DNA from: the human T2T-CHM13v2.0 reference genome, Homo sapiens
NCBI RefSeq assembly: GCF_009914755.1
Contig: NC_060936.1
Reading direction: 5' to 3' (one strand)
DNA: 64,000 nt
The position numbers were made by a program, and so were the translations under genes. The notes under the pieces are model-generated. The model worked only from the letters and a program-made list of their open reading frames with translations. It was not told the origin of the DNA and ran no database searches. This document shows positions 4,955-57,160 of the stretch, piece by piece (the stretch's first letter is position 1; every line of letters begins with the position of its first letter).

Positions 4955-6049
<1,095 letters not shown>

Positions 6050-16235: not shown

Positions 16236-18373
16236 ATCTATGTGACAGTAAATTTGGTCAGTCCCTTTATTCAACATCCTCAGTAAGGTTAGATTATGTT
16301 GAGTTTCTACAGATTCTATTAGAGCCCACACTTTTTTTTTTAATGCCATTGACTTGATTACAAAGACAGGTTAGTTGTCCTGCATGATGTCCTAAATTCT
16401 GACTTTGACTAAATATTTCCTCCTAGTGTTACCTAACTTTTTCCTCTATCTTCTATTTTTCTTGTAGACTACAGGCTTGAATAGATTCAGGTTTAAGGTT
16501 TTGCTTTGTATTGCTTAGTTTATGACTACTTCATAGGTGGTGCTGTATGCTTCCTATTGCCTCATATTCAAAAGCATGCAATAGCTGGTTGTTTCACTTA
16601 CAGTGGCTGCTAAGATGGATCAGTGAGTTCAAGTGGTGGCATCAACCTTTTTACCTAATGATTTTGTCATCTATTGATAACCAGTATTTAAGTCATTTTA
16701 TTAGGAGCTACAAAATGTTGACTTTCTAATACTACATTTATTATCTGTAATTATTCTATATAGAACTCTTATCTAGTAGGGTTATTTGATTTCCAGGAAA
16801 TACTGTTCATACTGGAAAGGTGATATAAAATCTCGGTTCTTTCCCCTTAATTATCAGTTTTTGGAGTAATGAGTTGGTGCACAGCAACCTTTGCTCGATT
16901 CATTCACTATGGCGTGTTTGTTCTTTCCTCTTTAAAAAAATTATGACTTTTTATTATTTATATATTTGTTTATCTACTTGAGACAGGGTCTCACTCTGTC
17001 ACCCAGGCTGGAGTGCAGTGGTGCGAACACAACTCACTGTAGCCTCAATCTCCTGGGCTTAAGCAATCTTCTCACCTCAGCCCCCAGAGTAATATTTTTA
17101 TTTATTTTAATCAATTGAAATAATAATTCTTCTTGATGTTCAAATCATCTTATCTTTGACCAAAAGGACCCTCTTCAAGCTGGCTTATGGAATTTTTTGT
17201 TATTTGATGTGTCCCATCATTAGCCTTTGATAATGTTTTTACTTTCTGGGGCAACAAGCTGTTCCAAGCTTATTTTTCTTCCTTTTCTTTTTTTTTTTCC
17301 AATTTTATTTTGTACTTTTTCCGCCCTGGACCTGGTTTAGGTGTGGTGCTTTTAATGAAAAATGGTATGAATTTCAGCTATTCTAATTGTGGATAGTGAT
17401 ATTTCATTGTGGTTTTAATTTGCGTTTCTCTGATGACTAATGATTTTGAGCATCTTTCCATGTGCTGATTGATCATTCATATATCTTCTTTGGTAAAAGC
17501 ATCTATTCACTGGGAGGCGGAGGTTGCCATGAGCCGAGATACACCACTGCACTCCAGCCTAGGGGACACAGCAAGACTCTGTCTCAAAAAAAAAATAAAA
17601 AGTGTCTGTTCAAATCTTTCACTCATTTTAAGAAAATGGGTTGTCATTTTTTTCCTATGGAACAGAATTTATTGGATAGTAGCATTTTAGGAAAAATATA
17701 AGCTCTACTATATATATATATAAATCTATATAGATAGATAGATAGATAGATACAATCAACTGTAAAGTCCATCTCAACTTCAGAAAATGTAAAGACATGT
17801 CCATCTTAGAAATGAAGAAATGGCTTCCTTGCAAGTTTGCAAGAACATTAGTGACATAATGTATAAAGTACTTAACATAAGTGTTCAAAGGGTAACTGTT
17901 GTTACTATTATCAACTGTATTAATTAAACTGTTTTGAGATTTAACACACATGTTACAGACTTTAAGAAAGCAGCTGAGTGCAGGTTTTTTGTTTTAGTTT
18001 TGCGTTTATGCCAATGTGAAAATATGAACAGCTCAGTTCTACATTCTGTTCCCTGAAAATACCACGAGAGCTATTAGACAGTCTTGAAAGGCAGTATCTA
18101 ACATAAGCTTTGTGTGTTCATGGATATTTGTTCAATAATAACATTTAAATAATGAGGGAGGCCACTTCTAAAGACTTATCATTTACCTGATCTACACAAT
18201 ATCTAGCATAGGACCAGTTCTCAATTGACGGCAAACAGTCCTAGCAGGTCACTTCATTTTGAACAGACATTGCAATTGCACTTGAGAAATCATGCCAAGT
18301 TTTGCAGGGATTGTCCTTGGACTTGTCACCACGAAGACATAACTCATGCTATTTACATATTATAGCATTTTCT

Positions 18374-18667
18374 TTCTTTTTTTTTTTGAGACGGAGTCTC
18401 ACTCTGTTGCCCAGGCTGGAGTGCAGTGGTGCGATCTCTGCTCACTGCATGTTCTGCCTCCCGGGTTCACGCCATTCTCCTGCCTCAGCCTCCTGAGTAG
18501 CTAGGACTACAGGCGCCCACCACCACACCCAGCTAATTTTTTGTATTTTTAGTAGAGACGGAGTTTCACCATGTTAGTCAGGATGGTCTCAATCTCCTGA
18601 CCTCGTGATCTACCCACCTCAGCCTCCCAAAGTGCTGGGATTACAGGCGTGAGCCACCGTGCCGGGC
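18374..18667 (-). repeat. AluY inside the transduced segment
   Basis: 16-bp TSD tattatagcattttct at 18358 and 18668. Confidence 0.9.
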
Positions 18668-18740
18668 TATTATAGCATTTTCTAGACTAGTTCAATCTGC
18701 AATGTCCTTGCACTGACCAGGGCTCCATTTCCTTTATCAG

Positions 18741-18878
18741 AGGGCTATGATGGAAATGATGTGGAGTTCACCTGGCTGAGACGGAATGACTCTGTGCATG
18801 GGCTGGAAACCCTGTGGCTTGCTTAGTACACCATACAATGGTATTTCACCTTGGACACCAGATTGCAGCAGGAGACAG
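18741..18878 (+). pseudogene. GABRP: Isolated, decayed copy of one GABRP (GABA-A receptor pi subunit) coding exon
   Basis: Acceptor tttcctttatcag|, 138 bp, donor AG|gtaact. From 18743 it reads [45 protein letters not shown], versus GABRP as recalled [46 protein letters not shown]. In-frame TAG at 18824-18826. No other receptor exon seen in the window. Confidence 0.9.
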
Positions 18879-18974
18879 GTAACTCATGTGACAATTTTTT
18901 TTTTTTTAATTTTTACCATTGTTTTCGTAGATATTCCTAGGCCAGTTCTAAGAGTTTGTTTCTTGGGAGATTAG

Positions 18975-19281
18975 TGCTGGAGGCCAGAAGTCTGAGATCA
19001 AGGTTGGTTTTTTCTGAGGCCTCTCTCCTTGGCTTGGAAACAGCCGTTTTCTCGGTGTCTTCACATGGTCTTTTGCTCTGTACCTGTCCAAATTTCCTTT
19101 TCTTATAAGGACATCACTTGTATAAGATAAGGGTTTTCCCCTCATTTTAACTTAATTACCTCTTTAAAGGCCCTATCTCCAAACACAGTTACATTCCGAG
19201 GTACTGCAGGTCAGGGCTTCAGCACATGAATTTTGGGCAAGGATGGAGAGGGTTGGAAACAATACAATTCACCCCGTAACA
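18975..19281 (-). mobile_element. MLT1A/B-type MaLR LTR fragment inside the transduced segment
   Basis: ggaggccagaagtctgagatcaaggt, cttataaggacatca, ggccctatctccaaa, acaattcaccccgtaaca. Confidence 0.75.
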
Positions 19282-19320
19282 CCATATCTGACTCCTCTCA
19301 CTAGCCTCCTCAAAGAGTGA

Positions 19321-19782
<462 letters not shown>

Positions 19783-20144
19783 TGACTACCAGTCCTCTGT
19801 CAGATATATGTATTATGATGATTTCTCCCAGCCTGTGGCTTGCCTTTTAATTTTCTTAATTTTGTCTTTCAAAGAGCAGAAGTTTTGCATTTTGATAAAA
19901 ATGCAACTTACCAATTATTTCTTTTATGGTTTCTGCTTTGGCAAGTTTGTAAATATTTTTTTCCCTGTGTTGCATGGTTTTAGCAATTATCTTTAGGTCT
20001 ATGATCCACATGGAGTTAATTTTTGTGTGTGGTGTGAGGTAGGGATTGAGGTTTTTTTTTTTCCCAATATAGATATTCAGAATTTAGGCTGGGTGTGGTA
20101 GATGACATCTGTAATCCCAGCACTTTGGGAGGCCAAGATGGTTA

Positions 20145-56911: not shown

Positions 56912-57160
56912 ACACCGCATGTTCTCACTCATAGATGGGAATTGAACAATGAGAACACATGGACACAGGAAGGGGAACATCACACTCTGGGGACTGTTGT
57001 GGGGTGGGGGGAGGGGGGATGGATAGCATTAGGAGATATACCTAATGCTAAATGACGAGTTAATGGGTGCAGCACACCAGCATGGCACATGTATACATAT
57101 GTAACTAATCTGCACATTGTGCACATGTACCCTAAAACTTAAAGTATAATAATAAAAAAA
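56912..57160 (+). mobile_element. 5'-truncated young L1 3' end (L1PA2/L1PA3-like) in BICD1 intron 1
   Basis: L1 3' UTR with G-rich tract and ctaatgctaaatgacgagttaatggg (GAG, non-Ta). AATAAA at 57151 plus A tail. TSD aagagtttttttt at 56899 and 57161. Confidence 0.92.

What the first reader, a model, noticed from the sequence alone, without database searches (positions are those of the whole stretch)
18741..18878. Orphan GABA-A receptor pi (GABRP) exon with intact splice sites ~34 kb upstream of BICD1
Seen: a 138-bp segment bounded by tttcctttatcag| and |gtaact encodes [45 protein letters not shown]. The ORF track misses it because of an internal TAG. Knowledge: it matches the GABRP extracellular domain at 36 of 45 residues against the sequence as I recall it, and GABRP is on chr5, not chr12. 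Several differences (R>H CAT, R>W TGG twice, S>L TTG) are what CpG decay would give. Inference: this is neither a processed pseudogene (intron flanks are kept) nor a whole-gene duplicate (single exon). It is a shuffled exon, frame-preserving in length and in the same orientation as BICD1, so any upstream sense transcript could splice it in, though with a stop codon.
Basis: partly seen in the sequence, partly recalled or inferred. Interest (0 to 1): 0.85.

Follow-up and report, generated by a model that had tools for sequence, protein, structure and literature searches.

The report
Retrocopy of a GABRP antisense RNA
The stray GABRP exon on chromosome 12 is real, but it arrived as a passenger inside a reverse-transcribed copy of a spliced antisense non-coding RNA from the GABRP locus, so it is an ordinary dead retrocopy and not a shuffled exon.

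Summary
Window 18741-18878 (+) is a 138-bp copy of one GABRP coding exon: 37 of 46 residues identical, E=6e-18, one TAG, with AG and GT still at its edges.

The exon sits in a 1.76-kb block (17654-19411). That block matches four colinear pieces of the chr5 GABRP locus spread over 22 kb.

- The three chr5 stretches missing from chr12 are canonical GT-AG introns on the minus strand, antisense to GABRP.
- The block ends 13-15 nt after a minus-strand AATAAA, followed by an A7 run.
- A 12-13-nt target-site duplication with one indel flanks it, at a TTTTT/A site inside an old L1 that the insert splits.

So this is an L1-mediated processed retrocopy, on the minus strand, of a four-exon antisense lncRNA. 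That RNA's 985-nt last exon covers the GABRP exon plus about 830 nt of the upstream intron and 17 nt of the downstream intron, which explains the "kept intron flanks".

Divergence is K2P 0.16, roughly 33-80 My. An Alu inserted later. No other copy was found in the genome.

It is a new member of a known kind, with no evidence of function.

The parts
17654..19411 (-). Whole retrocopy of the GABRP-locus antisense lncRNA. It is 1758 bp, or about 1464 bp without the later Alu.
   Evidence: Four colinear matches to G000:C5:171344557-171366992 at 81-92% identity, and the only such place in the genome besides the source. Overall 1426 aligned sites at 85.8% identity.
17654..18895 (-). Copy of the lncRNA's terminal exon E4 (chr5 171345541 down to about 171344557, 985 nt). 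It holds the antisense GABRP exon, about 830 nt of the upstream GABRP intron and 17 nt of the downstream intron.
   Evidence: In chr5 the boundary with E3 lies at minus-strand ...TTTCATACAG|TTTGTCAC.
17668..17673 (-). Poly(A) signal AATAAA (TTTATT on the + strand), 13-15 nt before the end of homology. The same hexamer is at chr5 171344572-171344577.
17647..17653 (-). A7 run on the minus strand (T7 on +) directly after the retrocopy's 3' end. It is the poly(A) remnant, merged with the A-rich start of the target-site duplication.
17639..17651 (.). Left target-site duplication, GGTTGTCATTTTT.
   Evidence: The same L1 positions occur again at 19416-19427. Alignment with 5 other L1 copies; coordinates.
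19416..19427 (.). Right target-site duplication, GGTTGTCTTTTT, followed by ATTAC. This implies first-strand nicking at TTTTT/A on the + strand.
18741..18878 (+). The GABRP exon copy (residues 182-227) with a TAG stop. It is a passenger, antisense within the retrocopy.
18374..18667 (-). Alu that inserted after the retrocopy formed, with 16-bp duplications at 18358-18373 and 18668-18683. It is absent at the matching chr5 site.
18896..18972 (-). Copy of lncRNA exon E3 (chr5 171348476-171348546, 71 nt, 53 bp into the intron after the next GABRP exon). A T-run here has expanded to 13.
18973..19348 (-). Copy of lncRNA exon E2 (chr5 171364730-171365119, 390 nt), 12.8 kb beyond the last GABRP codon. 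About 265 nt of it is an old high-copy interspersed repeat that was already in the source.
19349..19411 (-). Copy of lncRNA exon E1 (chr5 171366930-171366992, 63 nt). This is the 5' end of the retrocopy and may be truncated. Four unmatched bases (GTCA, 19412-19415) follow.
17397..17653 (+). Left half of the host L1 fragment. It carries a truncated Alu at 17510-17601 with its own duplication.
19416..20080 (+). Right half of the host L1 fragment, interrupted by an Alu at about 19445-19759.

Best explanation
Window 17654-19411 is a processed pseudogene (L1-mediated retrocopy) lying on the minus strand. Its parent is not GABRP mRNA. The parent is a spliced, polyadenylated RNA transcribed antisense to GABRP on chr5.

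That RNA started at least 15 kb downstream of the last GABRP codon and ran back through the 3' half of the gene. It had at least four exons. Its last exon, 985 nt, covers GABRP's 138-bp exon (residues 182-227) together with neighbouring intron sequence.

The mature RNA was reverse-transcribed at a TTTTT/A nick inside an old L1 on chr12, which produced a 12-13-nt target-site duplication. The GABRP exon, its AG/GT edges and its 'intron flanks' came along as antisense passengers.

The copy has since decayed neutrally: a TAG stop, loss of all five CpGs in the exon, an Alu insertion and microsatellite growth.

Shown here: the homology, the intron-exact junctions, the poly(A) signal, the A-run, the duplication and the split L1. 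Inferred: that the parent RNA was expressed in the germ line tens of millions of years ago, and that the copy has no function today.
For: 1. **Colinear pieces.** The block matches chr5 in four colinear, same-strand pieces:
   - 17655-18372 and 18668-18894 match 171344559-171345540.
   - 18902-18972 matches 171348476-171348546.
   - 18973-19343 matches 171364730-171365114.
   - 19348-19411 matches 171366929-171366992.

   No other GABRP exon has a match in the 64-kb window.
2. **Intron-exact junctions.** Each of the three chr5 segments absent from chr12 reads as an intron on the minus strand. The 5' sites are AATTT|GTGAGT, GAACT|GTAAGA and AAAAA|GTAAGT. The 3' sites are pyrimidine-rich tracts ending AATGCAG|, GTAAAAG| and CATACAG|. 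The chr12 junctions fall at those boundaries. On the + strand the same segments start CT and end AC, so they are not sense introns.
3. **3' end.** Minus-strand AATAAA is present in both chr5 and chr12. Homology ends 13-15 nt later, and in chr12 an A7 run follows.
4. **Target site.** The flanks are two halves of one L1 fragment. Of 19 other L1 copies fetched, 16 also carry a match to the right flank just downstream, on the same strand. In the alignment with 5 of them, 12-13 L1 bases (GGTTGTC[A]TTTTT) are present on both sides of the insert.
5. **Copy number.** The unique parts of the block hit only chr12 itself and chr5.
6. **Parent locus.** The chr5 locus is the intact GABRP gene. Its exons are found in order, and the exon and the C-terminal exon are 100% identical to PDB 8vsz_A.
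7. **Age order.** K2P is 0.159 over 1426 sites. The Alu at 18374-18667 is absent from chr5, so it came later.
Against: - The poly(A) remnant is short. It is 7 A's, of which up to 5 may belong to the target-site duplication.
- The two duplication copies differ by one inserted base.
- Four bases (GTCA) at the 5' junction are unexplained.
- No transcript evidence for the antisense RNA could be consulted. No chr5 annotation, EST or RNA-seq data were available, so its existence is inferred from the retrocopy alone.
- A literature search for 'GABRP-AS1', 'GABRP antisense', 'GABRP pseudogene' and 'GABRPP1' found 0 papers.
- An unrelated L1 fragment sits 233 bp upstream of the chr5 homology in the same orientation. 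This briefly suggested a longer DNA-level duplication, but the 233 bp of unique chr5 sequence between them has no chr12 counterpart.
Confidence: 0.9

Rival explanations
1. DNA-level exon shuffling or a small segmental duplication. A genomic piece of GABRP was copied to chr12 as DNA, and later deletions removed the rest.
For: Intron sequence flanks the exon on both sides. The pieces are colinear and in the same orientation as on chr5.
Against: Three independent deletions would each have to start and end exactly at minus-strand GT...AG with good extended splice consensus. My rough estimate of that by chance is about 3e-6, allowing about 3 positions of slack per junction and either strand. This is a calculation, not a tool result. 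It also leaves unexplained the AATAAA placed 13-15 nt from the end, the A-run and the duplication within a split L1.
Confidence: 0.04
2. A patchwork insertion made by template switching. Either L1 reverse transcriptase jumped between RNAs, or replication-based or double-strand-break repair copied several nearby chr5 fragments.
For: The structure is multi-piece with a 4-nt filler at one end. Junction 3 has an expanded T-run.
Against: All pieces come from one locus, in order and in one orientation. All three joins coincide with canonical splice donor-acceptor pairs. Template switching predicts microhomology at arbitrary positions instead.
Confidence: 0.04
3. A retrocopy of a partly processed sense GABRP pre-mRNA.
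For: It contains a GABRP exon with intron flanks.
Against: No poly(A) lies at the sense 3' end (19411). Two of the pieces lie 12.8-15 kb beyond the last GABRP codon. The removed segments are CT...AC on the sense strand. GABRP exons that a sense splice would keep are missing: the next coding exon ending at chr5 171348423, the TM2-3 exon and the last exon.
Confidence: 0.01

Closest known systems
L1-mediated processed pseudogenes (retrocopies) of mRNAs
   Same: Introns are removed exactly, a poly(A) signal and A-run mark the 3' end, a target-site duplication flanks the insert at a TTTT/A-type site, and the copy sits on a different chromosome from its parent and decays neutrally. These hallmarks are as summarised in the abstract of PMC4151081, which I saw only in the search listing.
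   Different: The parent is a non-coding antisense transcript, not the protein-coding mRNA. The copy therefore carries one coding exon in reverse orientation, with parental intron sequence around it, and none of the other coding exons.
lncRNA-derived pseudogenes
   Same: It is a dead copy of a long non-coding RNA. The class is named as little studied in the review PMC12747553, of which I read one passage.
   Different: Here the parent lncRNA is inferred only from the copy. Whether it is annotated or still expressed was not checked.
Unprocessed (duplicated) pseudogene fragments and exon shuffling
   Same: On the + strand it looks like intron-exon-intron, with AG and GT intact.
   Different: The homology is not contiguous genomic DNA. 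It jumps 2.9, 16.2 and 1.8 kb at antisense splice sites, and the block has retroposition end marks.
GABRP, the GABA-A receptor pi subunit (PDB 8vsz, 8vv0)
   Same: 37 of 46 residues are identical to residues 182-227.
   Different: It is a single exon with a stop codon and no neighbouring receptor exons. It is not a gene or part of one.

Membership tests
L1-mediated processed retrocopy | Parental introns are absent, with junctions exactly at the parental splice sites. | tested here: met
   3 of 3 junctions fall at minus-strand GT...AG boundaries of the chr5 source.
L1-mediated processed retrocopy | The 3' end follows a polyadenylation signal and carries a poly(A) tract. | tested here: met
   AATAAA sits 13-15 nt before the end of homology in both loci, followed by A7 in chr12 only. 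The tract is short and partly shared with the target-site duplication.
L1-mediated processed retrocopy | Flanking target-site duplication at an L1 endonuclease-type site (TTTT/A). | tested here: met
   GGTTGTC[A]TTTTT at 17639-17651 and 19416-19427, with the next base A. The host L1 is continuous across the empty site in other L1 copies.
L1-mediated processed retrocopy | The parent locus lies elsewhere and still holds the introns. | tested here: met
   The parent is on C5 and the copy on C12. The intervening 2.9, 16.2 and 1.8 kb are present on C5.
Natural antisense lncRNA of GABRP (the inferred parent) | A transcript exists on the strand opposite to GABRP and overlaps its exons. | not testable with these tools
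   No expression data or chr5 annotation were available. It is inferred from the retrocopy only. In present-day chr5 all six splice dinucleotides and the AATAAA are intact. By my estimate about 22% of neutral sequences would keep all 18 bases at this divergence, so this is not evidence of constraint.
Functional or duplicated Cys-loop receptor gene | Several receptor exons in order, forming an open frame. | tested here: not met
   Only one exon is present, and it has a TAG. BLAST of the whole window against 80 kb of the GABRP locus finds no other exon. Pfam LBD and TM searches of the genome list no hit in C12:31.93-31.99 Mb. Those Pfam searches also missed this exon type on chr5, so they are weak evidence.
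DNA-mediated exon shuffling or segmental duplication | Contiguous genomic colinearity with the source, with no retroposition marks. | tested here: not met
   Colinearity is broken at three splice-site pairs, and a poly(A) signal, A-run and target-site duplication are present.

The most novel reading that the evidence does not exclude
The retrocopy is a molecular fossil. It records that a multi-exon natural antisense transcript ran through the 3' half of GABRP and was expressed in the germ line some 33-80 My ago. All its splice sites and its poly(A) signal are still intact in human chr5, so the RNA may still be made. It could be an undescribed cis-regulator of GABRP. Separately, the chr12 passenger exon keeps a usable acceptor and donor in the BICD1 orientation and could act as a cryptic, stop-containing exon.
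Probability: 0.2. Interest if true: 0.45.

Novelty: new member of a known kind. Interest (0 to 1): 0.3.

Why it matters
It resolves an apparent paradox. A lone coding exon with intact splice sites and intron flanks, on the wrong chromosome, looks like exon shuffling. It turns out to be routine retroposition of an antisense RNA.

Two things are of practical use:
- It is a caution for pseudogene calling. Fragments of the form 'exon plus intron flanks' are usually scored as unprocessed or duplicated, but they can be processed copies of antisense transcripts.
- It gives dated, sequence-level evidence for the exon structure of an antisense lncRNA at the GABRP locus, which can be checked directly against transcript data.

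Nothing suggests a function for the chr12 copy or an effect on BICD1.

Tried and rejected
- **Pfam on the 46-aa fragment.** 0 families at E<=10; the fragment is too short.
- **The search for homologous proteins with the fragment, 'longer' lengths.** No candidate. That database did not yield vertebrate GABRP, so I could not place the exon among orthologues.
- **First L1-continuity test.** Against the loci already held it found too few L1 copies and printed nothing useful; one search was a script error. I repeated it after fetching 19 other L1 copies.
- **The chr5 L1 fragment at 171343930-171344325.** I considered whether it meant the duplication extended further upstream as DNA. I rejected this. 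The chr5 L1 stops at a different L1 position, 233 bp of unique chr5 sequence has no chr12 match, and the chr12 L1 resumes on the other side of the insert.
- **Rfam scan of 17300-19800.** 0 families at gathering score.
- **Literature.** Searches for a named GABRP antisense RNA or pseudogene returned 0 papers. GABRP + antisense + lncRNA returned 39 papers; judged by title and abstract start only, none of the 15 listed concerned such a transcript. GABRP/RANBP17/lncRNA/5q35.1 returned 1 irrelevant paper. In PMC2584115 'antisense retrocopy' means retrocopies lying antisense in host genes, which is not this case. PMC7290577 contained none of my five phrases for lncRNA parents.
- **Not attempted.** Alu subfamily dating of the inserted Alu, and naming of the interspersed repeat in E2. 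No repeat library was available, and names recalled from memory would be unreliable.

Full report
**Observation.** Window 18741-18878 (+) is bounded by ...tttcctttatcag and gtaact.
- Against all PDB chain sequences the best hits are the two GABRP entries 8vv0_A and 8vsz_A (E=6e-18 and 7.6e-18, residues 182-227 of the 440-aa chain). Identity is 37 of 46.
- The next family member, GABRD, scores only E about 1e-3.
- Pfam alone did not recognise the short fragment.
- The match is real and specific to the pi subunit.

**Source locus.** The window's own genome (24 contigs, 3.1 Gb) could be searched.
- The sequence right of the Alu (18670-19415) and left of it (17600-18377) each hit, apart from themselves, one unique place on contig C5 near 171.345 Mb.
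- Pfam searches of the genome place Cys-loop ligand-binding and transmembrane exons in order at C5:171334875, 171337134, 171348336 and 171349238.
- The exon at C5:171345387-171345524 translates to exactly the PDB GABRP residues.
- C5:171351627-171351926 encodes residues 341-440, the C terminus, at 100% identity.
- C5 therefore holds the intact parent gene on its + strand.

**Extent of the homology.** I fetched 80 kb of C5 and compared it with the whole window by BLASTN. After setting aside Alu and other multi-copy hits, one block of the window (17655-19411) matches C5 in four colinear, same-strand pieces:

| Window | C5 | Identity |
|---|---|---|
| 17655-18372 and 18668-18894 | 171344559-171345540 | 81-87% |
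| 18902-18972 | 171348476-171348546 | 84.5% |
| 18973-19343 | 171364730-171365114 | 83% |
| 19348-19411 | 171366929-171366992 | 92% |

- The two halves of the first piece are separated by an Alu present only in chr12.
- The block samples 22 kb of chr5.
- It skips GABRP's next coding exon (ending at 171348423), the TM2-3 exon and the last exon.
- Its last two pieces lie 12.8 and 15 kb beyond the last GABRP codon.
- No other GABRP exon is present anywhere in the 64-kb window.

**The joins are splice junctions on the opposite strand.** Viewed on the minus strand, each chr5 segment missing from chr12 is a canonical intron:

| Intron | 5' site | 3' site |
|---|---|---|
| 1 | ...GTTTAATTT\|GTGAGTACTGG | TTTTGTTTTGTAATGCAG\|GAAATTG |
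| 2 | ...CCAGAACT\|GTAAGAAAC | CTTTCTTTCTCTGTAAAAG\|AATCTCCC |
| 3 | ...GGAAAAAAA\|GTAAGTAACC | TTATTTTTATTTCATACAG\|TTTGTCAC |

- The chr12 sequence joins the flanking exons at these points, apart from point substitutions and growth of one homopolymer run.
- On the + strand the same segments begin CT and end AC, so they cannot be sense introns.
- Exact coordinates give four source exons on the minus strand:
  - E1: 171366992-171366930, 63 nt shared.
  - E2: 171365119-171364730, 390 nt.
  - E3: 171348546-171348476, 71 nt.
  - E4: 171345541 to about 171344557, 985 nt.
- E4 contains the GABRP exon in antisense, plus 17 nt of the downstream intron and about 830 nt of the upstream intron. This is why the chr12 copy appears to keep intron flanks.

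**The ends are retroposition ends.**
- On the minus strand both loci carry AATAAA (chr5 171344572-577, window 17668-17673).
- Homology stops 13-15 nt later. In chr12 only, seven A's follow (window 17647-17653).
- The flanks of the block are the two halves of one old L1 fragment.
- I fetched 19 other L1 copies using the left flank. In 16 of them a match to the right flank also lies just downstream on the same strand.
- An alignment with five of them shows that 12-13 L1 bases, GGTTGTC[A]TTTTT, occur on both sides of the insert, at 17639-17651 and 19416-19427.
- The base after the right copy is A, so the first-strand nick was at TTTTT/A on the + strand. This is the usual L1 endonuclease site for an insert whose poly(A) faces left.
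- Four bases (GTCA, 19412-19415) at the 5' junction are unassigned.

**Mechanism.** Together these features identify an L1-mediated processed retrocopy of a spliced, polyadenylated transcript antisense to GABRP.
- Shown: intron-exact junctions, the signal, the tail remnant, the duplication, the split host element, and a single copy on another chromosome.
- Inferred: that this RNA was present in germ-line or early embryonic cells at the time.
- Open: whether 19411 marks its true 5' end or a truncation.

**Age and decay.**
- Over 1426 aligned sites, identity is 85.8%. K2P is 0.159, or 0.145 without CpG sites.
- Splitting this between two neutral lineages gives about 33-80 My, for rates of 2.2e-9 down to 1e-9 per site per year. 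The rates are my assumption.
- The Alu at 18374-18667, with 16-bp duplications, is absent from chr5 and so is younger.
- Within the exon, 15 of 138 bases differ. Five are CpG-to-TpG/CpA changes on the chr12 side, removing all five parental CpGs.
- The TAG arose from CAG.

**Rivals.**
- A DNA-level duplication trimmed by deletions would need three deletions to land on antisense GT-AG pairs with good consensus. I estimate that at about 3e-6 by chance. It would also leave the signal, tail and duplication as coincidences.
- Template-switch patchworks do not predict splice-site joins.
- A sense pre-mRNA retrocopy is contradicted by the strand of the splice sites and of the A-run, and by pieces lying far beyond the last GABRP codon.
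- An unrelated L1 fragment 233 bp upstream of the chr5 homology was examined and does not extend the duplicated segment.

**What is known.**
- The hub's RefSeq table lists no gene or pseudogene over 17.6-19.4 kb.
- In the paper library no paper contains 'GABRP-AS1', 'GABRP antisense', 'GABRP pseudogene' or 'GABRPP1'.
- Broader searches gave nothing relevant (for judged only from the titles and abstract starts of the 15 papers listed).
- Retrocopies are textbook; I saw the abstracts in the listings.
- Pseudogenes derived from lncRNAs are acknowledged but little catalogued (one passage of PMC12747553).
- Rfam has no family here.
- I could not see chr5 annotation or any expression data, so I cannot say whether the parent antisense RNA is already annotated.

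**Verdict.** The exon-shuffling mechanism is replaced by retroposition of an antisense lncRNA, with confidence about 0.9.
- This is a new member of a known kind, with no sign of function.
- Its value is as a clean worked example, and as indirect evidence for an old antisense transcript at GABRP.
- Interest is about 0.3.

Noticed in passing
L018:7216-7640 (G000:C5:171367216-171367640): A sharply bounded, roughly 425-bp high-copy repeat (3088 first-look candidates, 80-84% identity) lies 224 bp upstream, in the minus sense, of the point where the retrocopy's 5' end maps. It looks like a solo LTR. Related copies sit in the window at 2591-2767 and 5114-5274. It could be the antisense RNA's promoter, but its family and orientation were not determined.
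   Followed up: partly
window 18973-19237 and C5:171364660-171365000: Most of source exon E2 is an old interspersed repeat, with at least 38 other genomic copies at 72-78% identity. The chr5 and chr12 copies are 83% alike, and their match runs about 106 bp past the repeat, so the repeat was already exonised in the lncRNA. On chr5 the element starts about 70 bp before the E2 splice donor. The repeat family was not named.
   Followed up: partly
window 17510-17601: A 5'-truncated Alu with an A-run and an approximately 15-bp imperfect duplication (aaaagcatctattca / aaaagtgtctgttca) interrupts the host L1 just left of the retrocopy.
   Followed up: no
window 17706-17752 versus C5:171344620-171344720: The same spot of the E4 sequence carries different microsatellites in the two loci: (TA)n followed by (GATA)n on chr12, and a long (TATAT)-type run on chr5. 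Many unrelated genomic hits come from this AT-rich stretch.
   Followed up: no
C5:171343930-171344325: An L1 fragment covering the same ORF2-3' region and orientation as the chr12 host L1 lies 233 bp upstream of the source exon E4's poly(A) site. I judged it coincidental.
   Followed up: yes
window 56912-57155: This stretch matches C5:171338478-171338704 on the minus strand at 87% identity (E=6e-81), as a low-copy hit within the 80 kb compared. It lies inside a GABRP intron and in BICD1 intron 1. It is probably a shared interspersed repeat, but that was not checked.
   Followed up: no
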